From Chiloscyllium plagiosum (lineage: Eukaryota): a stretch of 64,000 nt of DNA. Location: the NCBI RefSeq assembly GCF_004010195.1, contig NC_057751.1, forward strand, positions 9,431,611 through 9,495,610, in the 5' to 3' direction. Positions within the stretch are counted from its first letter, which is position 1, and the number at the start of each line of letters is the position of its first letter. The translations under genes were made by a program, and so were the position numbers. The notes beneath the pieces were generated by a model, which saw only the letters and a program-made list of their open reading frames with translations, ran no database searches and had not been told where the DNA came from. Shown here in pieces: positions 22,774 to 58,068 of the stretch.

Positions 22774-23112
22774 CTGGAAATTGGAAGAACCAGTCAGTTA
22801 ACAGTGGAGAAGTCAAAAAATGCTCAATTTCCCAATTCTGTTTCACAGAAAACACAAATAAGCAAGCAGTCCTTTGAGGGAAGGGAACTGATCTCCTTTT
22901 AATTTTAAATTAGATAATTTTTTATGGCTGAATGACATTAAGGCAGTGTTCTGGTTTCCTGAGCACTGACATTTTCTGGAGTGTGATTCTAAATGTAACA
23001 AGACACTATTTTATCACAGATCCGTGACTGAATCTACTCACAGGTACTTTCTGTTCCAGAGCACGAAAATAAAATCAGTAGGAAAGTCATAGGATGGGTT
23101 TCTTCTCTCTCA

Positions 23113-27510: not shown

Positions 27511-27960
27511 CGCTCCCGCCCCCAGGGGGTTGCCTTACTCTGGCGTAGAGGCTGCTTTCCAACCGACGCTGTCTCGATGCCAATGGCGCCGGCCTCAGGC
27601 CGTGCTACTCACCGATCACCATTGTCTCGTCGGGTATCTCTTCGATGAAGCATTTTTTCTCAGTCTCCCCGATGTGAAAGTAGATTCCGTGCGAGAGGCT
27701 GAGCTGAATGCTCAGCCAGACAGAGAACACAACTTGACCGCAACGCATTGCCCTCCCGCTGCCCGGATCCCCTACACTGCGCCTGCGTCCCGGAACCAGG
27801 ACACGAGCCATGCGTTTGCGTCATCCTGCCACGGGGCGGAGCACCATCCGCACGCTCCCTCAGCAGGCCCCGCTCAAGTTCTGCGCATGCTTCAAAAGGT
27901 GAACTCAGAGACAGATGCGCATGCGTTTAGGGTCTGTCTGTTTCTGACCTGAAAACTGTC
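27500..27960. promoter_or_regulatory. CpG-rich promoter/exon-1 region of TMED4
   Basis: The most CpG-dense non-repeat stretch in the window. Motifs: NRF1-like TGCGCATGC at 27882-27890 and TGCGCATGCG at 27916-27925, GC box GGGGCGGA at 27833-27840, CRE-half-like TGCGTCA at 27817-27823, ETS-like CCGGAA at 27790-27795. Confidence 0.8.
27613..27748 (-). CDS. TMED4: TMED4 exon 1 (signal peptide and GOLD start); an in-frame upstream ATG at 27811 is also possible
   Basis: [45 protein letters not shown](G)|gtgagt. The five exons sum to 660 bp (219 aa plus stop). Confidence 0.93.
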
Positions 27961-28821: not shown

Positions 28822-29515
28822 AGAGTCATAAAGATGTACAATACAGAAACAGACTCTTTGGTCCAATTGTCCATGGAAAAAGTGAGAACTGCAGATGCTG
28901 GAGATCAGAGCTGAAAAATGTGTTGCTGGAAAAGCGCAGCAGGTCAGACAGCATCCAAGGAGCAGGAGAATCGACGTTTTGAGCATAAGCCCTTCTTCAG
29001 CTATTGGGGGTGGAATGATGACCAGTGCCAGCCAGTGGGGGGGGGGGAATGATCACCAGTACCAGCCAGTGGGGGCAGAATGATGACCTGTGCGCACCTG
29101 AAGAAGGGCTTATGCCTGAAACGTTGATTCTCCTGCTCCTTGGATACTGCCTGACCTGCTGCGCTTTTCCAGCAACACATTTTTCAGCTCCAATTTGTCC
29201 ATGCTGACGAGATATCCTAACCTAACCTAGTCCCATTTGCCAGCACTTGGCCCATATCCCTGTAAACCCTTCCTATTCACATACCCATCCAGATGCCTTT
29301 TAAATGCTGCAATTGTACCAGCCTCCACCACTTCCTCTGGCAGCTCATTCCACACATGCACCACCCTCAATGTGAAAACGTTGCCTCTTAGGTCCCTTTT
29401 ATGTCTTTCCCCTCTCACCGTAAACCTATGCCCTCTAATTCTGGACTCCCTCAACCCAGGGAAAAGACCTTGTCTATTTACCCTATGCATGCCTTCATGA
29501 TTTTATAAACTTCTA
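28822..29515 (-). mobile_element. CR1 LINE 3' fragment interrupted by a family-A PLE insertion (about 28876-29189)
   Basis: CR1 ORF2 C-terminus (ORF 29227..29490). The tail is split by the PLE repeat with an imperfect duplication TCCAAT(T)TGTCCATG. Confidence 0.88.
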
Positions 29516-33227: not shown

Positions 33228-35069
33228 CTAGAAAAGGAAAAGATTCTTCATTCATCAATTAAATCATACCTTGAACCAAGTCAATTTGAGGAGCTGATAC
33301 CACTCCATAAGCACAGAAGACTAACTTAAGACAGAAGTTCTCTCACTTTGTAAAGTTAATTCTATAATCTTGAAAATCTCATGATTAATTCCAAACCACT
33401 GTTAGAGTTAGATGATTGGAAGCAGGCTAGTGGTTGAGACAGCACTTTTGGCCTCAGTGCCCTCGGGTAGGATAAGCTAACTCAGTTTTTGACTGTGTGG
33501 AAGAACAGGACTACTGCTTCAGTGTCACTCAGTGTGTAGTCTAATAAGAGATACTGCCTTCAGGAAAGTAGAAGCAAATTAGACAGACTGGCATATCATT
33601 CCTAAAATTGATACTCAAGTTAGAAATAAATTTTGCGTACAAAAAAACTCTCAGGTTCAGTATCGTACAACAATCTGCGAAGTCTGCAAGGATCGTCTGA
33701 AGAGGGAGAACATTGTGATATTTTTAAAAGTTAAGTCAAGATTTTTAATTCATTAAATAAGTAAATTCAAATCCTGAATGACACCTGACAACTGGACTAA
33801 GAAAAAGGAGCAGAAGGACAAATCGGTGGAGACTATGACAGAACAACTGATGAATGATTCTGTTGTCAAGTGAAGATCATGCACAGTAACTATTAACCAG
33901 CCCAGTAACCCAAGAACTGAAAAGCTCACAACACAACTAAAAGATGATGTACAACATTTAGAAAGATGTTGTACTTATCCGGAGTTCAGTGGTGGCAACA
34001 ATTACTGGTGGTCTTTAGCTTGCTATCAGTAAAAAGAATGAGATGAATTGGACCCAGTGAATGTAATTGTAAACCCTCAAGATTGGCGGGTTGTCGGCAG
34101 GGACGGGGATCCGATACAGATCACCACCTCCTGGATCTCCAGAGTGGCCTGCAATCTAATGTCCACACACCTGCCTCACTCCCCTCATCTAACCATGTCT
34201 CCCTCCGATACCCTAGCTGCAGCCTTCTCACCCAGGCTTTTCAAACAACAAAATGGTTGGCTGCTGACCAGAGAAAAGAAACTGAATCACTTCTACCTAA
34301 ATACACCCTTGACCAATGAGCCTGCAACCTCCCAGTGAATGTAAGCCCTTCATGTTTGCAACTCGACATTCTGGACAAACAAGCGCTCCACAGACAAAAG
34401 GTATTTTGTCCTTTTGAAAGACTACTAAGGAGTGTGTAGGATGCACAGCACAGAAAGAAGCTATTTGTCCCAACCAGTGTATGCCAGTATTTGAGCTCCA
34501 CTCGAGTGTTCGTCCATCTTTCTTACACAGACATAAAAACATAGGACATTTGGCCCTTCAAGCCTGCTCCACCAACTGATCGTCCAACTCAATAATTTAA
34601 TCCTGATTTCTCCCCGTAACCTGAGATCACATTTGCCTCAAGTTTTATATCTCGCTGCCTCTTGAATACATTCAATGTGGTGGCATCAAATACTTCTTTG
34701 GTATCATCTGCAAACTTTGAGATGTTACATTTTGTTTCCTCATCCAAATCATTAATCATAAAAATAAAATTATAACCCTTTATTTTCTTCTTCCTCTTAT
34801 ATTTGTGTCCACTCCTTGGAATGCGTCAAAACAATTTCCACTTGAATGACTCCATGTGGTAGCAAGTTCCACATTCCCATTACTTTTTGGAGAAAAAACT
34901 TCTTTCTGGATTTTCTTTCAGTTTTTAGATGATTATCTTTCAGAAGTGGAAACATTCTCTTTGTGTCAGTTACTTAATGGCCAATATCAGTCCAATAGTT
35001 GGTTCTATTCATCTCAACTCTCCAAGTATTGATTTTCTAATATATGTACTGAAATAGTCACAGACTTAC

Positions 35070-35246
35070 CAGAACAGGTGGTGCTCGGAATAGGTAGCTG
35101 AAAGGGTAATACAGAAGATTTATACACGAGGCAGCATACAGGTCAGCATAACGCATCAGCTGACTAGCAAATAGTGTTTGTCTGGAGCCACATCTTAATA
35201 AACTTCCCATCTTTCCATAGCACATATCCATCTCATGGGTAACTGC
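35070..35246 (-). CDS. NT5C2: NT5C2-like exon
   Basis: [59 protein letters not shown]; canonical AG/GT; 177 bp. Confidence 0.96.
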
Positions 35247-36246
35247 CTAGAAGCACGTGCAAAAAGTTAAGATTAAAGAAGTAAAAAAGTTGAAAAGTGT
35301 TTTTAAAAAGTGAAAGAAATACCTGAAGCTCTCACCAAATAGATTCACAACAAAAGATTTGTATATAGAAGGATGTTCAGCCCCTTGGATCTTATTCTCC
35401 AAGAATAATCAGTCTTGTCATCTTCTAATTATTACATCTCACTGGTCCTGACTGTGAATTCACAGCAAGGACTCACATTTTCCTGACAACTACCTCTCAC
35501 CATCAATGTAAAGAAACATTTCCAGGCACCTGGTCTGAGCTTGGCTTTAAAGTTCTGAGCATGCTTCTTCCTTTCTATTGTCCTGGTGTATTTGAAAATC
35601 TTCTGGGGTTTACATTCCTTATCTCATTACATGTCATACCTATCTCTGTGAGGTCTTCACTGAGATGCCTCATCTTGATTACAAAGGCTGGAGATTATCA
35701 AGTTGCTCCTGCCATCTCTTCCTTCTGTTTCATGGGATCAGCTGTGCACATCTCTCATTCTTGAAATAACATCAGTTTGACCAGAAATGTGTATGCATAG
35801 TTTCAATATGACTTTGAGAAATTTTGACACAACTTACTGTTAATGACTATCTGACATGAAGTAGCCCTGATAAGCACTCTGTTAGTTTACAATACTGGCT
35901 CTGTTGTAACTCAGAGTAGGAACTCCCAGCAATGGGTGGCTGGCAAAAATGAATCAAATCTGTATTGCAACTGCAATCCAACTCCAACACATCTGTATTT
36001 CAGGTTTAACTGAGGCATGTTTTGATATCTGCATGTCAGCTTAATTCGTCCAGGCAGATAGGTGCTTATTGCAGCATTTAATGACCTTCTGACAGATTAA
36101 TTCAGTCTTGTTCTTTGACTTTCACAAACCAAATGTGTCTAACACATATTTCTAAATGAGAATCATACATTTCACTGACTTCCTTGTTGTTGACTGAACA
36201 TGATGACCAGGTTTCGACTGTTTGATAGTGGGAATGCACTTCTTAC

Positions 36247-36307
36247 TTTTATTTGTCTCCGAATTAAGGTGATATCAGGACGTTCATTGCTGCTACTGTC
36301 CAGATTC
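36247..36307 (-). CDS. NT5C2: NT5C2-like exon
   Basis: (K)NLDSSSNERPDITLIRRQIK; canonical AG/GT; 61 bp. Confidence 0.95.
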
Positions 36308-36513
36308 CTGGCATAACAGAAACAAATATTATGTCAAGGTCATTTTAACATTGTCCTATCTTTACCCACACAACAGGCAACATTTTAGACAAGAATATGT
36401 TTACAACTTATTCAGCAAGAAGGCACTTCCAAAACATGCATCTTCATTCAAAATGACGCAGTTTCATCCTTCAGGTTTTAGTCACTTGTATTGATGACAA
36501 TCTTCACACTAAA

Positions 36514-36694
36514 AGGAGAAAGTGAGGACTGCAGATGCTGGAGAAGAGTCGAGAGTGTGGTGCTGGAAAAGCACAGCAGGTCAGGCAGCATCTGAGGAGC
36601 AGGAGAATCGATGTTTCGGGCATAAGCCATTTATCAGGAATCTTGATGAAGGGCTTATGTCTGAAATGTGCTTTTCCAGCACCACACTCTCAAC
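36514..36694. mobile_element. Family-A PLE fold-back insertion (degenerate)
   Basis: Inverted arms; flanks CTTCACACTAAAA / CTTCAAATTAAAA resemble a decayed TSD. Confidence 0.75.
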
Positions 36695-36918
36695 TTCAAA
36701 TTAAAAGGCTCAAGAGCATTTTGACACCTTTGGTCAAGGTTGCTCCAAGGCAGATCTTTCCTGGTCAGGGTTTTATAGGTTACTTTTCATCCATTAATGC
36801 AGTTTCTTTGCAAACTCCAGCTTCTCAGTCAGGATTGAGTTCACTTTCTGAAATATTTCAATCTTGTGCTCAGTGAAAAGAGTTCCTCACAAATTTAGCA
36901 CATTTTTTGCTCACTTAC

Positions 36919-36970
36919 TTGTAAATATTTGCCACAAACATATCAAGGTTCCTAAGTTCTTCGAAAAGTC
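36919..36970 (-). CDS. NT5C2: NT5C2-like exon
   Basis: (G)LFEELRNLDMFVANIY(K); canonical AG/GT; 52 bp. Confidence 0.93.
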
Positions 36971-37983
36971 CTGAGAAAAAGGACAAGAAAAGGTGACATG
37001 CTGCTTAATATCATGAACAGCTACACCAGTGAGAATCACACAAGAATAAATTACATTTCTACACTGTCCACACCATAGAAAATCATCCCAAAATGGTCAC
37101 ATAAACGAAGACAGTTAGATGACTGCCAAGTTAAAGCAATAAAGATGAGGGCTGCTGAGTAAATGCTTTGTCAAACGTGTGTTTTAAAGCCTTAAAGAGA
37201 GAGAAAATGGTGAAAATGTTGAAGGACTTAGGAATGCCATTTCAGAGTATAGGACCAAGGTGGCTGAAAGTAAAGCTGGCAATTGTCCGGAAAAGGGAAT
37301 TGGAGATGCAGAAAAGGATCAGACAGAATGGGTAGGGAAGTTGTCATCAAGATAAGCAAAGGACAAAAACGTGAAACAATCTAAAAACATGGATGGCAAC
37401 GTTAAGTTGCAGGTTTTAAGAGACTCAGATCTCAACAAAGATTACAAGGATATAAACTGTGGACAAGGAGTACTTTGGGTCAGAGATACAAAAGCATGGA
37501 CGACTACCAGCACAAGATATCAAGTTGAATGCTAATGCACATGTGGAGACCATGTGTTGCTTGGGAACAACATGTCAATGAAGAAAATGAGTCAGCCAAT
37601 GACAGATTATTGAAGGATTCCAGAACAAGCAATTCACACAAGATACTCCTGCTACAAACAGATAGGAAGAGGGAAGCAAGTATGAGCAGTCTCACCAAGC
37701 TGAAGAACAGAGGAACAGCAGCAAAGGGGTGCTTAACTGCATCAAATCAAACGTGAGTGCAGGATTGTGAATACGAATTTTGAGGAGCCGGGTCCTGTGG
37801 TGAATGGGTAAACTAATTCTGTACCTAATGCACTCAGGTTTGCCCTCTTGACTTGAGAGTGTAAAATATGGGTTCAGATTTGTACAATATCTGGACTCCA
37901 TACATTCATTTCTTATTGAATCTTGACTCATATAGACTGTCTACTCTGCACTTAAATGCAGATCTGAATGCTGTTAGCTACTA

Positions 37984-38250
<267 letters not shown>

Positions 38251-39909
38251 TCAGGCAAAAAGTTCCCATTTTCATTGAAAGTGTTTTGCTGAGTGAGATT
38301 CATGGTGCACAGACCACCATGACTTGGAGTGATGTTTTTCCCACAGTCTTCCACTTTTCACAGAATTAATAATACAGTCAAATTTTGAACATTTTTCTTG
38401 GTCAATTGCTATTAGATAGCAGGTATGCCACGCAATGTCAGTGCACTGTCAGTGTACAGCATACATGCTGACTTTGTCCCTAACAGTCAGCAGGACAAGT
38501 AACATGTACATAATTGAAAGGGGGATTCCCCAAAAAATTCAACCATACAATCAGATAGATTTTTTTCAGCAAAAAAATCAGAAGGTCCACCACATCCTTT
38601 TGTACTTGTTGTGGGGCTGTTTGCCACATTAGCAATGTGAAACAGTCACGCATACTGAAAACCCAGGTCATGGAAAATGGCTGTCAATTAGCTGATCTCT
38701 CACCACCTGGGCTCAACAGTGCATCATGGTCTGAGAAGCATCCTCCTCTTTTGTACACACAGGTGCAAAGTGTTCATTTAAAACCTCAGCCATGCCCGCA
38801 GCCTTAATCTGTAAATCCCCTTTTTGGTCTCTGATCAGCCTGACTCCTCCTGAAACCATTCTCCTTCTGTTTGTAGGTTGACAGAAGACCTTGAGATTTT
38901 TCAAAGCAAAGCTGATGTACGAGAAAGCTAAATCACATTGTAAGTTGTTAGGGTGTGGAATGCACTGCCTGAAAATATGATGGAGGCAAGTTAAGTTGAT
39001 TCATTCAAGAGGACAGTAGATGTTCTGTTTTTCACACTGGTGTGCAGGGATATGGGGAAAAGGCAGGACATCAGCACTAGATAATCAAGTTGGACGAGAT
39101 AAGAGAGCCAGTACAGCCATGATGAACTGATTAGCCTCCTTCTACACCATAATAATTGTGATTCGGACTCCATGTAATCCCCTGAAGAAACCAATGACAT
39201 CTAGCTAACAACACAGGCCGTACTGTCTTCAAGGCAGTGGAACACATTGTACTGAATTTTCCAGGACTTTTTTGGGGCAGGCGGGGAGACTGGATGGCTA
39301 CTGAAATGGCAACGAAAAGCATTGGGAGGAGAAAACAAAGTCTTCCAGGCCTCCTGTTGTGTTCCCTGTGGAAAGGCGGGAAGGTTGGCAGTAAAGTTGG
39401 TGTCTCAGAACACACAGTGAGGCCAATTGGGCCACATCTTACATCTTTAGGCATTTTGCCCAATTTGAAAGAATCACCGCCAAGTAGGAAGATCTTTGGT
39501 ACTTGGTAATGCAGATCTTTGGACCAAGCAGATCTTCTCTTATTCAGTGTTAGTGATTGAATGGTCATGCATTACATCAAGATCACATGAAATGGCATTC
39601 ATTCCAGCCAGTTCGAGAGATGGCAATGAAAAGTTTTCTAGCATTTCATTTGTTAAATTCCAGTCGTATGGCTCTGCAGACTTGTCAGCTTTGTTTAGAT
39701 TTTCTCAATGATGTACCTCTGTGAGGTTTGAGTGTGCAATCTATATCAATCAAAACAGGAATCATTGGACTGGATTCCTCAGCAGCTTGCTTTAAAAACT
39801 TGAATAGGTGATCAGATGTGTTAGATACTGTATTGAGTCAAGGAGGAAATGTATCTGAGCCAATGTTTTGGATTGGATGGGGCCTCACAGTGAAATGACA
39901 TGCAGAAGT

Positions 39910-40245
39910 TTTTTATATTTCATTCATCGATGTGGGCATCACTGGCTAGGCCCATCCTTAATTACCAAGAGGGAAGTTTAGAATCAACCACATTGCTATG
40001 GGTCTTGAGTCACATGTAGGCCAGACCAGATAAGTACAGCAGTTTCCTTTCTTGAAGAACATTACTGAACCAGGTGGGATTTTCTCCAACACTTTTCTCC
40101 AACAATTCCGATTCAGGGTCATTTTTATACACTTAATTCCAGATTTTTATTGAATTCGAATTCCACAATCTGCCATGGCAGGTTTCAAACCCAGGTCTCT
40201 GGATTAACAGTTCAGTGATAATACTACTAGGCCACTGCCTCCCCT
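39910..40245 (-). mobile_element. tRNA-derived SINE with L2-type tail (second full copy at 58745-59094)
   Basis: Minus strand begins GGGGAGGCAGTGGCCTAGTAG, has B-box-like GGGTTTGAAACC, and ends ...GATGAATGAAAT. Confidence 0.8.
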
Positions 40246-40463
40246 CAAGTCAGCAAATATGTAATCTAAAACTATCCTTCAGTTCACTGACCTGACCAGA
40301 GGCCAGCAGGACTTACTCAAATATTTGAGCTGCCCATTTTTAATAATTAATAAGTCGTCTGTAGAGTGTCGTCCTCAATGCCCTCACATTATACACATTC
40401 ATTGTGCTGATAGTGAACATATGCAATTGTGTAAGAATCAACCTGATGGCACAGAGGACTCAC

Positions 40464-40530
40464 CTCCAGAATAAACAATACCACTTTGCAAAGGGCCTGT
40501 GTAAGTGCCAATTCGAAGCTTCCCAGATTC
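40464..40530 (-). CDS. NT5C2: NT5C2-like exon
   Basis: [22 protein letters not shown](G); canonical AG/GT; 67 bp. Confidence 0.95.
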
Positions 40531-40934
40531 CTGCAATATAATGCAAATGAATAAATAAATATTCTGCCACCAATCGCTGAAATCACTGAGGAAATTTTGA
40601 CATTAAATAGTTTGAACAAAAAGGTATGTAATTTATTTTACTGACTTCCTAATTTCTAGCTTGAGAATAAAATATTCAAACCATTCACTTGAATTTTTGG
40701 CAGCACTGCTTAATGGTGAGCATGACCAGAATTTTAAGTTAGCAAAGGGACACATAGAAAAGCCATGGGAAAATGGAGTTTCACAATGACCGATATGTTG
40801 GGTGAGGGGCAGTTGCAGGTGAGAGGTAATATGATGACATCTCCCCAGACTTTGTCCCAGAAAAGTGTGCAGTTCTACTCCATACATCACTTATAGGTAT
40901 CAGCAGCATTAAAGCCTTTGTGTCAATAAAATGA

Positions 40935-41136
40935 GAAGTCACACAATGCCAGCTTATAGTCCAACAGGTTTATTTCAAATCGCAAGCTTTCTGAGCACTG
41001 CTCCTTCGTCAGGTGAAATGACAAATGAACTACGCTCTGAAAGCTTGCAATTGCAAATAAACCTGTTGGACTATAACCTGGTATCATGTGACTGGTGACT
41101 TTGTCCACCCAGTCCAACACTGACACCTCCACATCA
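40935..41136. mobile_element. Penelope-like fold-back insertion, family B
   Basis: Inverted TATAGTCCAACAGGTTTATTT / AAATAAACCTGTTGGACTATA; exact 14-bp TSD TGTCAATAAAATGA (40921-40934, 41137-41150); hammerhead motif on - at 40984-41012. Confidence 0.8.
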
Positions 41137-41349
41137 TGTCAATAAAATGATGACAATTTCCTTGGAGTTTCCTTGGGATGGTGGGATGAAGGATGTCTGG
41201 TCTGCTGCTTGTAATGCAGTGGGATGTAAGGTAAAGGTAGGTCTCAGACAATCAGCAAGAAGTATCTGCCTTGAGTGAGTGGGATGAAAAATTTGACCCT
41301 TCCGATTTACACTCTGTCTTTGTCATTGAAGCAGAGCTCCATTACTCAC

Positions 41350-41457
41350 AGTGTCAACCAGTCTGAGAACGGTTCCTTCTCCAAAGAATAGAGGTTTCCT
41401 TGCATCGACTAAAATCAGGTCAAAGTAGGAATGCCAGGAGACATGCAATGTACCAGA
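41350..41457 (-). CDS. NT5C2: NT5C2-like exon containing HAD motif III lysine (RKPLFF)
   Basis: [36 protein letters not shown]; canonical AG/GT; 108 bp. Confidence 0.96.
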
Positions 41458-42862
41458 CTGGTAACAGAAAAAGAAGAAAATATCAGATGTTAGAACTTGC
41501 TGACCAACATTAGGTTCTGGAAATATTTCAATCTGACAATTGTCATGCTTGTTTCCCCGCCTTTCCATGACTTTGCCCTCCCTAATCTGTGAACTCCTCA
41601 AATCCAGCAAGCCTTTTCAGTTTCTTTAATTCAGGCCTCTTGCACCACTTTGATTTTCATTGCTCCAACATTATACACCATGCATTCATTTATCTGAGGC
41701 CTACACTATGGAATCTCTCCCTAAACCTCTCTGCCTTTCTTTCCTTCTTGAACAGACTTAATTGCCCAAACATTCTGTCATCTGTCCTCATATTTCTTTT
41801 TCTGTTCTGGTCTGAAATTTTGTTTAATATCGCTTGTTGAGGGCTTGCAATGGTGTCACAACCTTAAAATATTATAAAAACATAAAATTGTTAATGGCTT
41901 CTAACTGGCTCAAAGAAATACTGTACAAACTCAGTGTTTTATGATTGGCACATTGTGGATGCAGATCACCACAAGCATTGAGAATGAGTTTAGTTTTGCT
42001 GCATTTCAAGAACAAAGAACTCAGATCCTGAAGATGACAAGGGTAACATCAATGTGCATTTGTCTACACTTGTGTAATTGAAACTCAGAAGGTACAATAT
42101 GTGGCAGAGAGGGAGAAATGTATATTTTTCAATGCTCCCCAAGGTGCGTTAAAGGAATGTAGGAATTATAAAGAAGTGCTGCAGTCAGTCCAGCGAGGGA
42201 GTTGCCACAGGGCAATATTCCTAATGAAGGTGGGCAATTCCTGACCATGGGAACAGGAAGTCAGAGTGATAAAGAGAGGAAGACTATACTTCCTTGCCTG
42301 TATCAGGCCCATTGTGTCCTTACACCAATATTTGAAAGTATTCGCTGGAAATTACAGGGGGTCAATGAAACAGAAAGGAGGAATTCAATTTCACATTTCC
42401 ATCTATTCCCAAAACCTTCAACTCCCTTGTTCATCAAGAATTTATCCAGGTCTGTCTGAAAAATACACAATGATCCTGCCTCCACTGCTCTCTATGGTGG
42501 TTCAAATACAGCTCCAAAAACTCTGAGAAAAAAAATGTTTTCCTCCTTCCCCTTGTACTCATCTTCCCTAGAATGGGAAATAATCTTTCAGCATCCACTC
42601 AGTCATTTACCTTCAAGATCTTAAATATTTCATGATTTGTACTGTGATGTGTCATTTCTCCCTCCATGATTTCAAGTCCCCATGTCATTTTATTTTAGTT
42701 GTAAATTGATAGTTGCCTTGTCTGATTATTTCAAATGAGTTGTACCTTTTTCAGATATACCCATTGTTCACCCCGATTACCCACTGCTGCGTTTTGTGTA
42801 CAGACCATTATATTGTCAGCTTCCATCTGTGATGTATGTGCTGCAATGGTTTGGAATTTTAC

Positions 42863-42904
42863 CTTTTGCCCAAGTGAGGAATCAAACAAATATTTCATTA
42901 TTGC
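42863..42904 (-). CDS. NT5C2: NT5C2-like exon
   Basis: AIMKYLFDSSLGQK; ttgcag|...|gtaaaa; 42 bp. Confidence 0.9.
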
Positions 42905-44098
42905 CTGCAAAAGAAAGGTAATGAGGATGAGCACAAGTAAATCACGTGTTTGAGGGTTAATTGTGCTGTTTACTTGCTGCCAATTGGACTAACACTATGA
43001 TCAACTATGAACATGTTTAAATGTTTAAAAATCTACCACAGTACGAGTGCCAGTGACCCCCAATAAGTGCTGTTCATATGCATCTTTCAACAAAAAGTGT
43101 TTCAAACATTTACCTGTGAAGTTGGCACAATTTCAAAACAGAATCTTCCCAGCTACTGCACAAGGTGCTCATTGGTGGGAACATGTAAGATTGGCAATGA
43201 GGATCTTCTCAGCGTCAAAACCAAGAAGTCCCATTTTCCAAGCAAGCGTTGAAGTGAGATGAGATTCTTGCTAGTGAAAGGCATGTTTTAAATTCACATA
43301 ATTTCATAACCTTATTTCAGTTTCCCATCCTCCCACCTGCCAGACAGAACCTAAATGGTGATAATAACCATCATGAAAATTGGAGCAGGAATTTGGCTAC
43401 ACCAACTCATCACGAGGGTTTAGAGGGATATGGGCCAACTGCTGGCAAATGAACGAGATCATTTTCAGGTATCTGGTCAGTGTGGACAAGTTGGACCGAA
43501 GGGTCTTTTTTCATGCTATACAATTCTATGACTTGATCCTCTAGACCTCCATCAGTCACAAATGGTAAGTGACCACATAGAATCCTACCCAGAAGGACCT
43601 ACAGGTCCATGTCTGCAAAACGGGATGCCAATTACCTTCTGTCCAACATGCCCAGACAAATAAAATTAATTGAGCAGCACAGCTGCCAAATGCCAACACA
43701 TGACAGGGTGAACAGATGGCTTTGAAGATGATGTAGGTGCCAGGAATCCTGGGAGGTCCAGACAGTTGTCAGGACTTCTGACTGTGGCAAATGGAAGAAC
43801 ACACTAAGCAGGGAACCTGAGGCTCGTGGTGTATAGTTAAATGAGTGAAGATAGCTCGAAAAATGTCGATAGGGTTCACAATGAGAAACCTTTCATAATA
43901 TTCATCAAAAATTACACATCACCAATTTCTGCGAAGATACAGTTCCACAAAAATCATATCTTTCTCAACTGCTCGGCAGAACTCCTATCAGCATAACTTG
44001 GATTCGATGATCCGTAATTAGATCTTGATGACTAATGCAAGAATGAAACATTTCCCCTGTTATGATAATATGCCCAATGAGCGAAGAAACATAGGTGC

Positions 44099-44275
44099 AA
44101 GTGAGGGTTGCAGATGCTGAAGACCAGAGTCAAACAGTGTGGCGCTGGAAAAGCACTGTAGGTCAGGTAGCATTGAGGAGCAGGAGAATCGATGCTTATG
44201 CCTGAAACGTCAACTCTCCTGCTCCTCAGATGCTGCCTGACCTACTGTGCTTTTCCAGTGCCACACTTTTTGACT
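44099..44275. mobile_element. Family-A PLE fold-back insertion
   Basis: Inverted arms; 15-bp TSD AAGAAACATAG(G/A)TGC at 44084-44098 and 44276-44290. Confidence 0.8.
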
Positions 44276-47244
44276 AAGAAACATAGATGCCAATCTGAGC
44301 TTGGAGGCTGGCAGGGAAAAGTTTGCTTCAGATTCTGCTGAATTTAAGGCAGGACCTGATTTAAATTTTCATCTCCTTACCCCAGCTGCAGTCAGCCAGA
44401 TCGAGGTAATGATGGGGATAGGCCTTGGGTACAAGTGTCCCCAAGAATGGAAAGGAGCGAGGAAAACTGTGGCTCAGCAGGGAATGGTTCAAATTATCTG
44501 ATCACAGCAGCAAAGCACATAAGCAGGAAAGCTGTATCCATTAGCTTAGCAAAAAGCTAACCTGCTGGATCCATCCCTATTGCACATTAGCTTCTGCTCC
44601 TCATAAGGCAATGAAACCTAACTGGCCAGAGTTAAATTTAAAATACAGATGAAATCTAAGGCATGGAACCTTGTTATGATGTGTAAATGGATCAGAACCT
44701 ATTTGTGCTCTTTGCCAAGGTAATTGAAGGCAGCCATAGTGATAATGGAAATCCTGTAACTGTGTTTGCTTAGGTTTGCAAAGGCAAGATCAGCCATGGA
44801 TTGGTTCATGATTGTGTAAATGATGTGTAAATGATGTGTAAATGACCAATCCACCTCCTGGAATCAGTTTGGTTGTGTTTCCCTCCTCAGTTCTTTATAA
44901 GTGAAGAAAGGCAACCAAGAAGTGAACTGGAGTCAGAGTTTAGATTTTTAAATATTTTAACATCCTACATGACCTCATTCCACAAAATTTATAGAAAATG
45001 CTTCTCATAATCTCATTCTCCAGGAATATCCATGTTTCAGAGTGATAGATATTAATGTCAGCATTGATTCTACAGATTTAAAACAAAAAATATTTTTAAT
45101 GAAGCATATGCGAAGCAAATCAGTTTGATAATTATTAACATATGAACGTAATTGAACATTTTGTCCCCATCCGTTGCTTAGTGAGTTGATCCAGTCTGCT
45201 CTGTATCAAATTTCTCCAGGTTTCAGGGAAATGAAGCTTAAGTGGAGCAAGTCTGAGCAGCTGACTGGACAGCTCCTACTTCTAATGTTCAGAATCTATT
45301 TGTGCTCTTTGCCAAGGTAATTGAAGGCAGCCATAGTGATAATGGAAATCCTGTAACTGTGTTTGCTTAGGTTTGCAAAGGCAAGATCAGCCACAGATTG
45401 GTTCATGATTGCTGTTCAGAGATTTTTGCCTGTGCGTCTGTACCAAGAAACTACTCGGGGCATGCTGGTGAGTTGTCTCTTTACATTGATCCAATTTGTT
45501 AAGAATTTAAAATTAAACAGTCTTTTGGGTGAGATGGCTCAGTACCAAAACCTGGAGCCTACATTTATATGGCAGCTTTCGCAATCCAAGGACATTTCAA
45601 AGTCAATTAAGTACTTTTGAAATGTGATCGCTGTTGCCAGGGAAAGAAATGTACTCACTAATTTGCATGTGACAATGTTTCATAAAGAAGAATGACATAA
45701 ATAAATAGTCTGTCTGGTATTATCTTCAAACAGTACCATGCAGCACAAGTTGTATACAGGACAAGATGGATCTCAGGTTTAAGTCCTCAAAATTTTCTTC
45801 TGTTTAGAGAGCACTTTTAACATCATAAAACGTCTTCAGGTGCTTTACAGAGGTGTCATTGAAGACTGTGACATTGGCTATAGACAGATGGGTTTTAAGA
45901 AGTGTCTTTAATGAGGAAACAGAGAAGTATGAGGAAGGAATTTCAGATTTTAGTGCCTTGCAGCTGAAGGCAAGGTTACTAGTGTGAAGTAATTAAATCA
46001 GGGATGCTCAAAATATTACAATTAATGGAGCACAGAAGTTTTCGGACTCAAGGAGAGTACAAACATAGAAAGGAAAAGCCATGGAGGGTTTCATAAATAA
46101 GGATGGGTATCTTAACATCAAGGCATTGCTTCACCAGGAGCACTGTAAATCAATGAACACAGGAGTGATGGTTAAATAGATTTGGTGTGAGTTAGGATAC
46201 AGACATCAGATGTTTGTAGTTGTGGGTTACTAGAATTCATATGAAAACCAGTGCTGCTGGATCAGTGCCACTAAGGACATCATGTTGCTGACAAATGAGA
46301 AGGGGCTATTGATAGGTTCTTGGGACACCATCTGAGGGTCACAGCTGGGTGACAGAGATGGTGTGTGAGATTTTTCCCAAATGTTTCAACTCACATACTG
46401 GTAACTGTGTGGAGGACTGAACGAAAAGACACTGAGATCTTGCAATAGCAGGTGACAGGGTCCATATCTCAAGGGCAAGCTTTAGCTGTGACTTCTTATT
46501 TCATAGCTGCTGTGTTGCTTGACCCTTTCATGTCAGGTCTGATAATGAAACTGTATCCCTCCAGTTCGTGATTCCTACATCCAAAATAATGAAAAAGGTA
46601 GGTGCAATGTCAAATCAATTGACTAATTAAATGGCTGCTTTTCATTTTCCTTCAGTGGGTGGTTATGTTCATTGTGGGAGAACAATTTTGACCATAATGG
46701 CAGAATTAAATTTTTGAGGTCCCAGACAGACATACATTGTGATGGTATGCTGCCAGACCTGTTGAGTTTTACCAGCAATTTCTACTTCTGTTTAAGATTT
46801 CCAGCATCTGAAATTCTTTATTTTATTTACTGGATTTTGCATTCGAGCAGACCATATTATGAGGTACCTCCAAGTTTATTGCAGAAACTATCAGCACGAC
46901 AAATCTAAATCCACAGGCATTGATACATGACAGAGCAGTTTTATCACTGTGCTGTCAGTATTGTTGCATATGCGTTTCCAACTTTAAATGGTTGGGAGTT
47001 TATGTTCTCCACCATCGATTGATGTTGGCTCACAATGACTGCACATGAATACATAATAAGAAAGAATGGGTGCAATCGACAACTAAATAGACAGTTACCA
47101 CGAATGCAAAAGAAGGGGTAGCTTTTCAGTATTTCAAAAAGAATCAAATTGACACAAGACAGGATGCCATTCGATCCACTTTTCCTCTATCAGTTCTTGG
47201 GAACAGCTATCTACTTTGTGACAAGCTAAACAGTGCTTGGAATA

Positions 47245-49233
47245 GTAATGGCTCTTTCACTCACTAAGAGTTTTCTGGGGGTGGAAAAAGTGACTTGGGG
47301 GCTTTATAAAGGGTGAACAAGGGAAAGCTGCTGGAATTGATAGTCAAGTTGCAGTTGGAGCTATCTTTGTCCATAAGAAAAGGAGAGATAATCACAGCAA
47401 GAGCTCAGCATTTAAATTTGCTGGAATTGCCATCAGAATCTTCAGAGATGGTTAAAATTCAGTTGAGAATGAATCAGATTGAGTTAGTGGCAAAGGATTA
47501 TGATTAAAAGCAGAGGAAATACAAAAAGAAAAGAGAGAGCGAACAAAGGGAAAAAAGAAAGAGAGAAGACAGGAAAAAAGAGAGTCTGAAATTCACAAAC
47601 TGACACTTAAACAGGAAAGTTGGCATAAGTTTTTGTATTTTAGCTTGAGGTTTTCTTTCTCCTAAATGACCTCCTACTGGTAGTTCATGTGCTACCCACA
47701 ACACCTCTCTATACCCCACTGGTAATACGACTTTTGATTAGATTAGATTACAGTGTGGAAACAGGCCCTTCGGCCCAACAAGTCCACACTGACCCGCCGA
47801 AGCGAAACCCACCCATACCCCTACATTTACCCCTTACCTAACACTACAGGCAATTTAGCATGGCCAATTCACCTGACCCTGCACATCTTTGTGACTGTGG
47901 GAGGAAACTCTCCCTCTCCCTCTCCCTCTCCCTCTCCCTCTCCCTCCCTCTCCCTCCCTCCATTTCTGGGATTGAATGGGTGTTATTGGAAATTAGTACC
48001 AAATTTTAGCAGTGTGGTTGCTCCACTCATTAAATTACTAAAGAAAGGCAAGAAGTTCCAGTGGACAGCAAACTGTCAGAAGGCATTTGACGACCTGAAA
48101 GCTGCATTAACCATCGCCCCAGTAATAGCCACACCTAATTACGCAAAAGCATTCAAGGTGGCTATTGGTGCGAGTGATGTGGGTGTCGGTGCTGTGCTGT
48201 TGCGAGAAGATGACAAAAAGATAGAAGGACTTATCAGATATTTCTCTGGGAAATTGAACATTCATCAGCAGAAATATTCGACAGTTGAGAAGGAGACATT
48301 GAGCTTGGCGTTGGCGTTTCAACATTCAACATTTATGTTACCAGTAATGTATCTGAGACAATCATATATACCCATTAAAGTTTGTAGAGAAATTCAAGAA
48401 CAAAAATTCCAGACTGTTTAGATGGAGCTTGTTGTGACCGCCATTTAATTTAAAAATTGTGCATGTGGCAGGACAAGAAAATGTGACTGCCAATGCATTA
48501 TCGAGACTTGGATGAGAGCCGGAGGCATTCGGTGGCGGAAGTAAAATGGACTGAAACAGAATGGATTAGTGCATGTTTGCATGGTTATAGTCAATGTAAC
48601 GTACATATGTTGTAATGTACTAACAATGTAAGATTAAGGGATTTTAGAATGAAGCCATCTTTGGATATCGATGGTTCTTTTTTTTTTAAGAGGGGAGGTG
48701 TAATGATGCTACTCCATTAACAAGGTTATTGTGTCCTTGGTTATTTTTCGAGCGGTATAAAGGCAGAAGTTCTGGTATGTCTGGAAGTAACTACTTGAAA
48801 AGGCTTTTAAATTTTTTTAAGAAACACTTGTAGAGTGAAATGGGAGTGGCCAGTTCTCCCAGTTCAGTGTTTTTTCTAGTTTTGGGTAGGTTTTGGATGG
48901 GGACCCAAGGAAACAGCTTCATGATGAATCTCTCTCCTGTAAGAACCTATGTTTGAATTTACTTTTTTGGTAAGGGGTATGTGAGGGGATGTTGCAGGAA
49001 ATTGGAATAGCTCTTTGTTAAGTTGCGTTTTCATGTCGGTTGCATTTTGAAATAGTTATGTTATCATAAATTCGGTTTTCTTTTGTTTACGTATATATAA
49101 GTTCTGTTTTGTTTAAAACTGAAATTCTTTTTTGTTTGACCAGCTGCATCACTCCTAGAATATCCAACTAAAAAAGTTAGGATCTGGGCTTCCTTCTTGA
49201 AATGTTTTATGGGGTCTGGCCTGGTCCATGACA
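47245..49233 (+). mobile_element. Ty3/Gypsy (probably Gmr1-like) LTR retrotransposon remnant: gag start, inverted integrase piece, RT-end/RNase H, PPT, 3' LTR
   Basis: FLGLNGCYWKLVPNFSSVVAPL...ASDVGVGAVLL...YSTVEKETL is Gypsy RT/RNase H. PPT AAGAGGGGAGG at 48688-48698. LTR TGTAATG...CATGACA at 48699-49233. Confidence 0.88.
47908..47960. repeat. (CTCTCC)n microsatellite
   Basis: Direct reading of the sequence. Confidence 0.9.
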
Positions 49234-49577
49234 CCTTAAAGTTTTTAACTAATACTCTTGAAACTTATCACTGAATCTGCTCTCACTCCCTTATTGAATG
49301 GCATTCATCGAGTCACAGAATCATAGAATCTCTACTGTGTGGAAACAGACCATTTGGTCCAACAAGTCCACACTAATCCTAAGTAGAGTAATCCACCCAG
49401 ACCTATTTCTCTACCTATTATTATACATTTACACCTGACTAATGCACCTAACTGACTCATCCCTGAACAGTATGGGCAATTTAATATGGCTAATTAACCT
49501 AACCTGCACATCTTTGGATTGTGGGAGAAAACTGGAGCACCCGGAAAAAAACCCACGCAGACAGATCCATCAGCTCA

Positions 49578-49907
<330 letters not shown>

Positions 49908-50713
49908 TCAGTGTGGCGATTTTGTTAGGCCAGAGAAGCTTCCACGGCCATGTGGTTGGAATGTTTCACTGTGAAAAGCAATGGAATGGAGCAGGGAACA
50001 ACAAATTCTTTTCATTAGTTGTTAAGTCTCAAGCAATGGGACACTGATGAAAAATAAATATGAGATTTCAGAGGAAGAAGGAGAAAACACTTTTACTTGG
50101 ACAGACCAGGATATATTACAATTGTGGAATATATTGTCAGAACGAGCGATCAATGCAGAAACTACATCAACAGTTATGATGTGATAGAAAGGAATAAAAG
50201 AGATGGAGCCAGAGTGCAAACACAAATTAGGACAGCTGTGCATGTGGAGTGGACATTAAACACAAAAAGCGATTAGATGGGTTGAATAGCTCTATTTGTT
50301 TTGAAATATATGTGGTTTGTATTGAAAGCTTTTCTCCAGCACTTAATTGTCTCAGCAACATAACTAAAGTATGATTTTTCAATTACCAGTCTTTCTGGCT
50401 GAGGGAGCATGCTCAGAATTTCGGTGCGGTATGATTGGTGTGTGCTTCTAACTTTTCAGGTCTCCTTCTTCCAGTTACTGTTAAAATCCATCCCATCAGT
50501 TATACTCTGAACATGTATGGGGGTTGATGGATCACTGAATGTCAAACTAATTGCCTGATAAGTTTCAATTGTTTGAATAAGAAGTACTTTTTTATATATG
50601 AGGACAATGGATTTCAAAATAAATGGGGCAAAATTATAGTCAGCATGACAACAGGGCACAACTCCCATGACTGTTTCATATTCTGCTGCCTAAACAGTGC
50701 ATCTCTCCCACCA

Positions 50714-50925
50714 GTTGAAACTTTATTGCTGGAACAGCACAGCAGGTCAGGCAGCATCCAGGGAACAGGAGACTCGACGTTTCGGGCACAGGCCCTTCTT
50801 CCTGAAGAAGGGCCTGTGCCCGAAACGTCGAGTCTCCTGTTCCCTGGATGCTGCCTGACCTGCTGTGCTGTTCCAGCAATAAAGTTTCAACTTTGATCTC
50901 CAGCATCTGCAGACCTCACTTTCTC
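50714..50925. mobile_element. Very young family-A PLE fold-back insertion
   Basis: Perfect 89-bp inverted arms (50713-50801 / 50804-50892); exact 14-bp TSD CATCTCTCCCACCA (50700-50713, 50926-50939). Confidence 0.9.
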
Positions 50926-52313
50926 CATCTCTCCCACCAAAATTGCAGAGTCCAACTTGGTGGCAACACCTGTGAAGTTTGAAACTCACTGACTGGAGCA
51001 GTTTCTGGATGCTTTGCGACATGGTTATTATATCAGGACACCTCTACATTTACTACTGTATGGACAAGATTTAGCTGATCACTTTGATGTTTGCGTAACA
51101 AGTGACGGTGTAAAATCACTCTGAATCAAGTGAACAATGAACGATGTGTTCATCTCAGATCAAAACACGTATTGGACTTCAAATAGAATGCAATAATTTC
51201 ATGAAGTACTTTCATGAAATGAATATAGAATGCATGGGGTAACTAATCCCATTTTCTACATTCACATCATTCATTGCAAATGATTGCATCCGTTACCAAA
51301 ACCCCTGAACAAGGTAAACTCTCCTTCATCTCCAGAGCTCTGCTGTACTAGGGACTGCCAGTACAGCATCAACTGGACTCACAAGACTGAGGGACCACCC
51401 ATAACAGTTAAGTTTGGGGTGGGGAATCAGGGATTGGGTGATGGAGGTCAGTCTCACAAGTGGATGTCACAGAAAGAGGAGTGCTGTGGTGGTCAGGAAC
51501 AAGGACAGGAGTGTGGCTTTCAGTGGGCAGGTCCAGATCAAGGGACTCCTTCATACACAACATGCAAGCTGCACAGTTTAGCAGGCGACATGGGAGCAAG
51601 TCTGCTTGACACTGGGTAAATTGCAGCCAAAGCAGGAAAAGACACTTAAATGGTCATTAATGAACAATTTAAGGGTCATAAATGGATCAGCTTTGGCTCC
51701 TGTTCTGATTTGTTGTGTTGCCCTCTGGCTTCATCAGTTCCACAAAGTAAAATATATTTTTCCCCATCTCCAATATTTTTACAAGCAATGACTATAAGCC
51801 AAATGATCATTTAATTTTCTATGTTCTTCAATGTCCCTCTGATTTTCTTCCTGGTTGCATGCAATTGTGTCTCGGAGATTTGGCTTTAACTTTTGGAAAA
51901 GCCAGAAGCGTTAGAAATCTACTCAGATCAGAGCATATTATCATTTAGATGTTCCCAAAAACCATGTTAGCTTGCTCATGCACCACTGTTGTGATGATGA
52001 GATGCATACAATTTCACCAGTAGCCTTAAAAAGAGAATTGGATATATCACAGCAGAAAAAGAGTTGCAAGGATATGGGGAAAGAGATTGTGAATTCAACC
52101 AACAGAGTGGCTTTTGGAAAGAGCCATGCAGATTTAATCGGCAGAATAGCCTCTTCAGTGCTGTATTATTCTTTGATTATATGATTCAGCATATTCTTAA
52201 AGGTTTCCAAAAAAATTATTTCGTTCTGGGCATTTATGTAAAGCCTTTAGCAATGGAAGACCTTCCAAGAAGTGAGGAAAATGGACACCAAAACACAAAC
52301 ATATTCTACTCAC

Positions 52314-52367
52314 ATCCTTCATCACATACTTTTCCAGGTTTCCGAGAGTTTTCTTCTTCAAAGTCCC
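52314..52367 (-). CDS. NT5C2: NT5C2-like exon
   Basis: GTLKKKTLGNLEKYVMKD; canonical AG/GT; 54 bp. Confidence 0.94.
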
Positions 52368-56695: not shown

Positions 56696-58068
56696 TGTGA
56701 TGGACCAGGTCAGACCCCCTCAAAGCGTTTCAACCACTTAGTTTTAAACAAAACAGAATTTATTTAAAAGATTACCGAATGAAACACAAACTAAAGAGAA
56801 CCAAATATAGAACATAGAACGTAGAACATTACAGCGCAGTACAGGCCCTTCGGCCCTTGATGTTGTGCCGCCCTGTCATACTAATCTAGAGCCCATCCCA
56901 CCTACACTATTCCATGTATGTCCATTTGCCTGTCCAATGTCGACTTAAATGCACTTAAACTTGGCGAATCTACTACCGATGCAGGCAAAGCATTCCATAC
57001 CCTTACTACTCTCTGAGTCAAGAAACTACCTCTGACATCTGTCTTATACCTATCCCCCCTCACTTTAAAGTTGTGTCCCCTTGTGTTTACCGTCTCCATA
57101 CTTGGAAAAAGGCTCTCCCTGTCCACCCTATCTAACCCTCTGATTATCTTGTATGTCTCTATTAAGTCATCTCTCAACCTTCTTCTCTCCAACGAGAACA
57201 GCCTCAAGGCCCTCAGCCTTTCCTCGAAAGACATTCCTTCCATACCAGGCAACATCCTAGTAAATCTCCTCTGCACCTTTTCCAAAGCTTCCACATCCTT
57301 CTTATAATGCAGTGACCAGAACTGTACACAATATTCCAAGTGTGGCTGTACCAGAGCTTTGCACAGCTGCAGCATAACCTCCTTGTTCCGGAACTCAATC
57401 CCTCTATTAATAAAGGCCAAAACACTGTATGCCTTCTTAACAACCCTGTCAATCTGGGTGGCAAATTTCAGGGATCTGTGTACATGGACAACGAGATCTC
57501 TCTGCTCATCTGCACTCCCAAGAATCCTACCATAAGCCCAGTACTTTGCATTCCGATTACTCCGGCCAAAGTGTATCACCTCACACTTGTCCACATTAAA
57601 CTCCATTTGCCATCTCTCAGCCCTCTCACCTCTCAGAATAACTTAACCTCTCTGAAATAGGTTAATGATGGTGTTCCAAATTCATGCAACAATCCCCAAA
57701 AACACCCCTTGTCACAAAAGGTAAAATTAAACACAGGTCTTCCAGGAGAGATGTCAGAGAGAGGGAGGATCAGTGTGGACCTGCTTCTGTGTGTCCAGCA
57801 GCTTCACAACTGACTGCTTGCTAAAACCAAACCAAACCAGAGAAAAGCTGAGCTGGGAGAACTGGTCACTACCCTTTCATTGTACATCCCCTTTCAAAGT
57901 GTTTTTTTTTTAAACTTGAAAGCCTTTTGACTGAAGCAGTATCTATTAACTATAATCAAGTTGGCCCTAAAACCCATGTAAGCCAGACCTCTCGGCAACT
58001 CTGCACTTATGACCCCTCTGAAAAAAAAAAGGACATCATAATCTTGTTAAAGGAGTAGCATCATCACA
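56696..58068 (-). mobile_element. Solo LTR of the same family as 48699-49233, interrupted by a CR1
   Basis: Both ends match the reverse complement of the 48699-49233 LTR ends (TGTGATGATGCTACTCC... and ...GGTCTGACCTGGTCCATCACA). Confidence 0.85.
56806..57622 (-). mobile_element. Young CR1 LINE 3' portion (open 234-codon ORF2 C-terminus)
   Basis: MEFNVDKCEVIHFG...LEYCVQFWS...LEKVQRRFTRMLPG...; (GTTCTAT)-type tail at about 56806-56830. Confidence 0.95.

What the first reader, a model, noticed from the sequence alone, without database searches (positions are those of the whole stretch)
50700..50939. Perfect fold-back Penelope-type insertion with an intact minimal hammerhead core
Seen: 89-bp perfect inverted arms with a 2-nt spacer and an exact 14-bp TSD. 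On + it reads TTC-CTGAAGA-A-GGGC-CTGT-GCCC-GAA-ACGT-C^GAG, i.e. CUGANGA core, one extra A, 4-bp stem II, GAAA, self-complementary ACGT in place of stem III, GUC cleavage triplet (cut after 50829) and a short stem I. Known: Penelope-like elements carry minimal type-I hammerheads with palindromic stem III that are thought to act as dimers, and an extra nucleotide after A9 occurs in a natural viroid hammerhead. Inference: a very recent, non-autonomous, ribozyme-bearing retro-insertion. Caveat: the long hairpin could sequester the core in a full transcript.
Basis: partly seen in the sequence, partly recalled or inferred. Interest (0 to 1): 0.7.

Follow-up and report, generated by a model that had tools for sequence, protein, structure and literature searches.

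The report
Young fold-back Penelope retrotransposon stub
This is a real 226-base stub of a very common Penelope-type jumping gene, absent from a related species, that landed backwards in an intron; its small hammerhead ribozyme motif is of a known kind and is probably locked in a hairpin, so the feature is ordinary.

Summary
Observation confirmed: 89-nt perfect arms, 14-nt flanking repeat and a complete minimal hammerhead core. It is one of 9 insertions of one family in 64 kb, with the published Penelope-like (PLE) layout: inverted 5'-truncated copy, direct copy, 33-nt tail, TSD. A contig of related organism B (2.6% diverged) carries the empty site with one TSD copy. Two other organism-A studies show the outer junctions, reaching only 12-28 letters in. 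So the insertion is real and post-dates the split, but 'very recent' is not shown. It lies in an intron of an NT5C2-type gene on the minus strand, where C3-U4 read A-G, so host pre-mRNA has no intact core. On plus, the hairpin beats the ribozyme fold by about 52 kcal/mol. Junctions differ in every copy, so it is a dead-on-arrival truncated copy, most likely two cDNAs joined at insertion, not a self-propagating mini-element. No link to an RT/GIY-YIG ORF was found for this family. The scan noted the same pattern on other pieces of this genome.

The parts
50700..50713 (.). Left copy of the target-site duplication (12 nt unambiguous, 50701-50712; 14 nt with one shared base at each end)
   Evidence: single copy in the organism-B empty site
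50713..50801 (-). Inverted, 5'-truncated, tail-less copy of the PLE end (left arm); lacks C3-U4, reads AGGAAGA on the minus strand
50799..50925 (+). Direct, 5'-truncated PLE end copy (right arm plus tail); begins 3 nt before C3 and shares TTC with the left arm (3-nt junction microhomology)
   Evidence: family context CTCA-TTCCTGAAG also in loose ends
50799..50832 (+). Minimal type-I hammerhead: stem I 50799-50801/50830-50832, core 50802-50808, extra A 50809, stem II 50810-50821, GAA, palindromic ACGU 50825-50828, C17 50829 (predicted cut 50829/50830, activity not tested)
   Evidence: features as in PMC4209133
50893..50925 (+). 33-nt tail (34 if C50926 belongs to the element), present on the direct copy only
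   Evidence: family 3' ends pile up at 50925-50928; 30-40 bp tail in PMC8557442
50926..50939 (.). Right copy of the target-site duplication
49872..52313 (-). Host intron (GT..AG) of a cytosolic 5'-nucleotidase (NT5C2-type) gene that contains the insertion
   Evidence: spliced loose end at 49871 in run X5 maps to 52314-52338; donor and acceptor seen
49788..49871 (-). Next host exon downstream in transcript direction
   Evidence: Pfam PF05761; PDB cytosolic purine 5'-nucleotidase, E 4e-10; raised depth in X5 and X8

Best explanation
A dead-on-arrival, 5'-truncated insertion of an endonuclease-positive Penelope-like retrotransposon, made in the organism-A lineage. Shown: 226 nt were added at a site that is empty in organism B, duplicating 12-14 target bases, and the insert is an inverted tail-less copy plus a direct tail-bearing copy of the element's hammerhead-bearing end. 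Inferred mechanism: the PLE protein nicked both target strands 12-14 nt apart. Each 3'-OH primed a cDNA on uncleaved element RNA, one from the outer start site (tail end, about 50925) and one from the inner start site 33 nt upstream (50892). Both stopped near the 5' edge of the hammerhead and were joined through TTC/GAA microhomology. The hammerhead is inherited cargo and most likely inert at this locus: the host gene is read from the other strand, where the core is broken, and a plus-strand read-through RNA would zip into the 89-bp hairpin.
For: Empty site: X15 record 1 lies on 49620-50699 (record 5563-6640) and 50926-51620 (record 4866-5562), contiguous in the record, with 47 other letters in 1775. 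Outer junctions appear in A runs X8 and X5. 5 of 6 fold-back copies in the window start the inverted arm at the tail boundary (boundaries set by eye; aligned). 5 of 8 copies tested have a flanking repeat of 14 nt or more with at most 1 mismatch, against 1 of 300 random pairs reaching 12. The layout equals that in PMC8557442 and PMC3846280. PMC11167929 shows in vitro two RT start sites bounding the tail, cleavage and extension of both target strands, and use of uncleaved RNA; its start lies 111-118 nt from the ORF start at stem II, and the tail end here lies 116-117 nt from stem II. In copies at 1.4 kb and 44 kb the tail-less arm reaches further 5' than the tailed arm, and the 29-kb copy has a 97-nt filler; one snapped-back cDNA cannot give these. 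Hairpin -191.9 against -139.4 kcal/mol with the core held open; P(G10.1-C11.1) 5e-19.
Against: No RT or GIY-YIG ORF was tied to this family: none among 290 window ORFs scanned, and no protein hit for the longest upstream extension. For this copy alone the TTC/GAA junction fits snap-back self-priming equally well, and PMC3846280 reads such junction palindromes as self-priming. The A-run junction pieces reach only about 12, 28 and 24 letters into the element, under the tool's 31-letter bar, and the output was cut, so an empty allele in A is not excluded. One of 6 fold-backs (23 kb) starts its inverted arm about 43 nt inside the tail boundary, and 3 of 8 copies show no clear long TSD. The folding numbers are equilibrium predictions only.
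Confidence: 0.82

Rival explanations
1. Same PLE origin, but the fold-back arose by snap-back self-priming: the tail-bearing cDNA folded on its own 3' end (TTC/GAA), copied itself back and was resolved at the tail boundary.
For: 3-nt microhomology at the apex, and the tailed arm is the longer one in this copy; the 23-kb copy has a symmetric palindromic centre; self-priming is proposed in PMC3846280.
Against: It cannot give the 1.4-kb and 44-kb copies (tail-less arm longer) or, simply, the 29-kb filler. It needs a separate reason to stop at the tail boundary, which the second RT start site of PMC11167929 supplies.
Confidence: 0.25
2. A short RNA of about 120-130 nt, starting at the hammerhead's 5' edge, is its own non-autonomous, SINE- or retrozyme-like template mobilised in trans by PLE protein; the hairpin is still built anew at each insertion.
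For: 10 of 15 copy 5' ends lie between -4 and +10 of C3 and none at the predicted cut (+28) (three of the 15 read because their anchors were off). Records 99% or more alike to this copy: 3459 of 19786 (X8) and 498 of 3242 (X5) in A against 163 of 12342 in B. Retrozymes derive from pLTRs (bioRxiv 10.64898/2026.07.22.740005).
Against: The 23-kb copy extends 78 nt further upstream on both arms. Loose ends before 50799 continue into shared upstream sequence in DNA and RNA runs. No tandem array was seen. A structural RT stop explains the clustering equally well. No shared RNA start was listed (table 6).
Confidence: 0.2
3. An old insertion whose arms were homogenised by gene conversion, or an assembly fold-back artefact.
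For: Both arms share all differences from the other window copies (9 of 120 to the nearest); the apex was not seen in an independent record.
Against: The site is empty in organism B; exact TSD; inverted left junction and tail junction in other A studies; A-enriched near-identical family records; 0 of 6 CpGs decayed against 7 of 21 in seven other arms.
Confidence: 0.04
4. A DNA transposon derivative (MITE or fold-back) with terminal inverted repeats.
For: Long perfect inverted repeat with a TSD.
Against: The arms are not terminal (33-nt tail outside); the 56-kb copy has the tail and a TSD but no inverted arm; 3' ends are fixed while 5' ends and centres vary; the repeat unit is a PLE-type hammerhead.
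Confidence: 0.02
5. The copy works as an active ribozyme that cuts a transcript at this locus.
For: Core, stem II and GUC are intact; stem I has 3 pairs against 2 plus a mismatch in the other copies.
Against: The host gene is on the minus strand, where the core reads AGGAAGA; the hairpin is favoured by about 52 kcal/mol; there is no same-strand partner nearby; min-HHRs show no monomer activity and low dimer activity (PMC4209133) or need the PLE protein (PMC11167929).
Confidence: 0.04

Closest known systems
Complex insertions of endonuclease-positive Penelope-like elements (PMC8557442; PMC3846280; passages read)
   Same: Inverted 5'-truncated copy adjoining a direct copy, a 30-40 bp tail on one end only, a short TSD, and an empty site with one TSD copy (also shown for an Adineta insertion).
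   Different: No ORF at all (226 nt); TSD 12-14 nt against 8-10 nt in the Adineta examples read; very high density, 9 insertions in 64 kb.
Minimal hammerheads (min-HHR) of metazoan PLE pLTRs (PMC4209133; parts 1-2 of 4 read)
   Same: Type-I layout, extra nucleotide between 9 and 10.1, G10.1-C11.1 pair, palindromic 15.2-16.2 with no loop 3, short stem I, mostly single truncated copies.
   Different: Stem II is 4 bp (7-8 bp in the Schistosoma motifs described); stem I is only 3 bp here because the native upstream base was lost at the junction; no shark example was seen in the parts read.
Poseidon_Ac of Anolis (PMC11167929; parts 1-2 of 4 read)
   Same: Two start points bounding a tail; about 116 nt from stem II to the 3' end; copies include sequence upstream of the ribozyme cut, as expected from uncleaved template.
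   Different: No sequence comparison was possible (the GenBank supplement is unreadable here); the clade of this family is undetermined; this copy lacks the loop-II ATG that most window copies carry.
Non-LTR retrozymes (bioRxiv 10.64898/2026.07.22.740005; abstract and Results part 1 read)
   Same: Small, ORF-less, hammerhead-bearing, pLTR-related, reported in one chondrichthyan.
   Different: Retrozymes are head-to-tail tandem units; this copy is head-to-head with a variable centre and a tail.

Membership tests
EN+ Penelope-like element insertion | Inverted 5'-truncated copy adjacent to a direct copy | tested here: met
   6 of 9 family insertions in the window are fold-backs
EN+ Penelope-like element insertion | 30-40 bp tail on one end only | tested here: met
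   33-34 nt, 50893-50925; 3' ends pile at 50925-50928
EN+ Penelope-like element insertion | Target-site duplication made on insertion | tested here: met
   one copy in the organism-B empty site, two in A
EN+ Penelope-like element insertion | Fixed 3' end, variable 5' truncation | tested here: met
EN+ Penelope-like element insertion | Family master encodes telomerase-like RT plus GIY-YIG endonuclease | tested here: inconclusive
   No ORF in this copy; no link for this family; no genome held. A different hammerhead family at 9.2 kb adjoins a GIY-YIG fragment (E 7.6e-4, below the Pfam cut-off).
PLE minimal hammerhead | CUGANGA, GAAA, NUH triplet | tested here: met
PLE minimal hammerhead | Extra nucleotide after 9; G10.1-C11.1; palindromic 15.2-16.2 | tested here: met
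   against PMC4209133
PLE minimal hammerhead | Compensatory changes in the stems | tested here: inconclusive
   Stem II: 0 of 4 pairs with a two-sided change in 13 rows, 5 of them picked by a pattern that fixes stem II. Stem I swaps C-G/U-A and U-A/G-C between this family and the 5 metagenome hits, in effect one event. Other window families vary stem II and the palindrome, each with one mismatch.
PLE minimal hammerhead | Site-specific self-cleavage as a dimer or with protein help | not testable with these tools
   No shared RNA end was listed in run X21, whose reads came only from other copies
Rfam hammerhead families | Score above a hammerhead model's gathering threshold | tested here: not met
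Non-LTR retrozyme | Head-to-tail tandem units | tested here: not met
   head-to-head or single copies only in this window
MITE / fold-back DNA transposon | Terminal inverted repeats at both ends of a fixed unit | tested here: not met
   tail outside the arm, variable centres, single-arm copies

The most novel reading that the evidence does not exclude
This copy comes from a PLE subfamily that amplified in organism A after the split and may still be active. Its G at position 1.3 would give the master a continuous 4-bp stem I with the family's upstream A (inferred; the master's upstream sequence was not seen). Its template would be a discrete RNA of about 120 nt starting at the hammerhead's 5' edge and copied twice per insertion from the two start sites. 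Young copies with empty sites in the sister species would then give a base-exact in vivo record of PLE twin priming with a 12-14 nt stagger, and would seed many perfect intronic dsRNA hairpins.
Probability: 0.2. Interest if true: 0.5.

Novelty: new member of a known kind. Interest (0 to 1): 0.22.

Why it matters
Modestly. The class, the layout and the ribozyme type are all published. What this locus adds is a clean footprint: an orthologous empty site fixes the insert at 226 nt and the duplication at 12-14 nt, and the geometry matches the two reverse-transcription start sites found in vitro for the anole element. How PLEs make inverted-plus-tail insertions is still called open in PMC8557442, so a set of such young copies could test twin priming against snap-back. 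This one copy cannot decide it, and its ribozyme is probably inert in place.

Tried and rejected
No whole genome is held, so there is no genome-wide copy census. Rfam: no hammerhead hit; the miRNA-type hits reflect the hairpin only. Core pattern in viral contigs: 0 hits. In metagenome contigs: 5 hits, which share only the 28-nt core and show no PLE-like long ORF. Protein search with the 44-residue frame of the 23-kb copy: 3 candidates, none significant; this is weak evidence. Pfam on 290 ORFs of 62 aa or more: no PLE RT or GIY-YIG; shorter frames were not scanned, apart from the read-through. Run search: no RNA holder listed on record. RNA run X21 (about 2% read) had no reads on the flanks, so it says nothing on expression, strand, editing or cleavage of this copy. 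No A-to-G excess could be judged inside the element because family copies swamp it. Summed contig depth over the element (10^5-10^6) was not used as a copy number. Double-hammerhead dimer energies were never the lowest fold and some rows looked inconsistent, so they were not used. In one search the boundary for the 41-kb element was set wrongly (its 14-nt repeat is shown); three anchors were off. Supplement search of PMC4209133 found none of the terms in 2 files, and file 1 could not be searched; supplements 1-2 of PMC11167929 gave figure labels only. These unseen files may already list chondrichthyan PLE hammerheads. Four literature searches listed no paper describing this family; Repbase and Dfam could not be searched, so absence from print is not established.

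Full report
Observation. The described features are all present. The arms 50713-50801 and 50804-50892 are 89 nt and fully complementary around a CT spacer, and a 14-nt direct repeat lies at 50700-50713 and 50926-50939. The plus strand carries CTGAAGA (50802-50808), one extra A, a 4-bp stem II, GAAACGTC (50822-50829) and a 3-pair stem I. The motif is far above chance: 6 matches against 0 in 100 shuffles, and 9 relaxed sites against a mean of 0.2. No Rfam hammerhead model scores it. Two refinements follow. The outer base at each end of the 14-nt repeat can belong to the element, so the unambiguous duplication is 12 nt. The arms are not terminal, because 33 nt (50893-50925) lie between the right arm and the right repeat.

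Family. The unit has 9 insertions in the window, near 1.4, 23, 27, 29, 30.6, 36.5, 44, 50.7 and 56 kb. Six are fold-backs, each with a different centre. Arm-to-arm mismatches are 3/86, 9/128, 6/93, 6/55 and 8/65 for the others and 0/89 here. The 3' ends are fixed and the 5' ends vary. In 5 of 6 fold-backs the inverted arm starts at the tail boundary; the 23-kb copy starts about 43 nt inside it (boundaries set by eye). Five of 8 copies tested have a flanking repeat of 14 nt or more with at most one mismatch, and three do not; random flank pairs reached 12 once in 300. Older copies decay mainly at CpG sites in and beside the core: 7 of 21 sites in seven arms, against 0 of 6 here. That difference is only suggestive (about P 0.09, my arithmetic). 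Three cores in the window are still exact. The window resembles a shark genome; that label is recalled and also appears in earlier scan notes, and no call tested it.

Reality and age. Of 24 listed runs I laid four. In organism B (X15) one 6713-nt contig covers 49620-50699 and 50926-51620 as adjacent stretches of the record, so it lacks 226 nt and holds one copy of the repeat. It differs from the window at 47 of 1775 positions, 2.6%. In organism A, X8 runs from the left flank to 50724, and X5 has pieces 49929-50740 and 50902-51620. These reach about 12, 28 and 24 letters into the element, below the tool's 31-letter bar. The apex was not among the rows shown, and no empty-site joint was shown for A in a truncated list. 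The insertion is therefore real and later than the A/B split. Perfect arms add little to the date: an insertion at the split would still be mismatch-free with probability 0.065, and the 95% bound is 1.5% substitutions per site. Records 99% or more alike make up 3459 of 19786 (X8), 498 of 3242 (X5) and 116 of 980 (X21) in A, against 163 of 12342 in B. This suggests an A-enriched subfamily rather than gene conversion, with the caveat that short records on conserved parts inflate such counts.

Host context. Pfam finds 5'-nucleotidase (PF05761) exons on the minus strand at 49.8, 41.4, 38.1 and 35.1 kb. The exon 49788-49871 matches cytosolic purine 5'-nucleotidase chains (E 4e-10). A spliced loose end in X5 maps to 52314-52338, which gives a GT..AG intron 49872-52313. 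The hammerhead is thus antisense to the host gene. Because the spacer is C3-U4, the minus strand reads AGGAAGA at the core, which breaks the C3-G8 pair that PMC11167929 shows is needed. On the plus strand the full hairpin folds at -191.9 kcal/mol against -139.4 with the core held open, and the stem-II closing pair has probability 5e-19. The fragment 50795-50850 also buries the core, while a start at 50799 leaves it open. The RNA run X21 had no reads on the flanks and gave no information on this copy.

Mechanism. PMC11167929 (parts 1-2 of 4 read) shows that a Poseidon protein cuts and extends both target strands, starts reverse transcription at two internal sites that bound the tail, uses uncleaved RNA and assists its hammerhead. 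Its start lies 111-118 nt from the ORF start at stem II; here the tail end lies 116-117 nt and the arm end 83 nt from stem II. I infer two cDNAs, primed at nicks 12-14 nt apart from the two start sites and joined by TTC/GAA microhomology. The family supports two cDNAs: at 1.4 kb and 44 kb the tail-less arm extends further 5' than the tailed arm, and at 29 kb a 97-nt filler of the local 33-nt repeat separates the arms. For this copy alone, snap-back self-priming fits as well, and PMC3846280 favours self-priming for junction palindromes (passages). The phrase 'twin priming' had no occurrence in the four papers that mention pLTRs, so the model is my inference. One thing is unexplained: 10 of 15 copy 5' ends fall between -4 and +10 of C3 and none at the predicted cut at +28, with the nearest at +26. 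An RT stop at the structure or an RNA start there would both do.

Comparison. The layout is the one drawn for canonical PLE insertions, an adjacent inverted 5'-truncated copy and a 30-40 bp tail at one end (PMC8557442, passages; PMC8969392, passages). An empty-site proof of a PLE TSD is already published (PMC3846280). The ribozyme meets the listed min-HHR traits, and such motifs number in thousands in coelacanth and Xenopus, with no monomer activity and low dimer activity for the Schistosoma motif tested (PMC4209133, parts 1-2 of 4; reviewed in PMC6765202, passages). Luense et al. was seen only as a reference there. Covariation is inconclusive. Stem II shows no two-sided change in 13 rows, five of which were picked by a pattern that fixes it. 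Stem I swaps pairs between this family and five metagenome hits, and four window rows have lost part or all of their native 5' context. Other window families change stem II and the palindrome while keeping the layout. The defining ORF could not be tied to this family. A different hammerhead family at 9.2 kb sits inverted beside a GIY-YIG fragment (E 7.6e-4, below cut-off). Retrozymes (bioRxiv 10.64898/2026.07.22.740005, abstract and Results part 1) are tandem, which this is not.

Verdict. A real, lineage-restricted, truncated fold-back PLE insertion with an intact but probably silent minimal hammerhead: a new member of a known kind. Earlier scan notes report the same pattern on other pieces of this genome; I treated them as leads only. 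Four literature searches listed no description of this family, but repeat databases and some supplements were not available. Interest 0.22; the empty site is the one piece of added value.

Noticed in passing
window 40919-41150 (-): A second PLE-type fold-back family: 93-nt arms at 76%, an exact 14-nt flanking repeat, and a hammerhead with a 5-bp stem II and an AGCU palindrome instead of ACGU.
   Followed up: partly
window 9100-9460: A third hammerhead family (CUGAUGA, 6-bp stem II, minus strand) directly adjoining a broken GIY-YIG endonuclease fragment on plus; a second copy of its end lies at 8735-8811.
   Followed up: partly
window 28875-29190: A fold-back copy whose 97-nt centre is made of the 33-nt repeat found at 26.5-27.5 kb, which suggests templated fill-in from nearby DNA.
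   Followed up: partly
window 27019-27083: A family fragment embedded in the 33-nt tandem array, near an emp24/GOLD exon.
   Followed up: no
window 35061-52338 (-): Exons of an NT5C2-type cytosolic 5'-nucleotidase gene; spliced and expressed in run X5.
   Followed up: partly
window 22594-22797 and 27608-27820 (-); 204-389 (-): emp24/GOLD exon hits and a weak astacin hit, indicating neighbouring genes on the same strand.
   Followed up: no
window 21560-21760 and 46747-46810: Decayed copies of a further related PLE-end family.
   Followed up: no
window 19529-21391 (-), 56902-57642 (-), 47747-48421 (+): LINE RT and endonuclease fragments (CR1-like by recall) and an LTR-type RNase H fragment.
   Followed up: no
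L001:701-728, L002:105-132, L003:1764-1791, L004:3798-3825, L005:72-99: The same hammerhead core in metagenome contigs with unrelated flanks, a different stem I and a shared downstream GGGAGC motif; probably host-animal DNA.
   Followed up: partly
window family copies (e.g. 1541, 29000, 29097, 36640, 50799): 5' ends cluster at the hammerhead's 5' edge, upstream of the predicted cut.
   Followed up: partly
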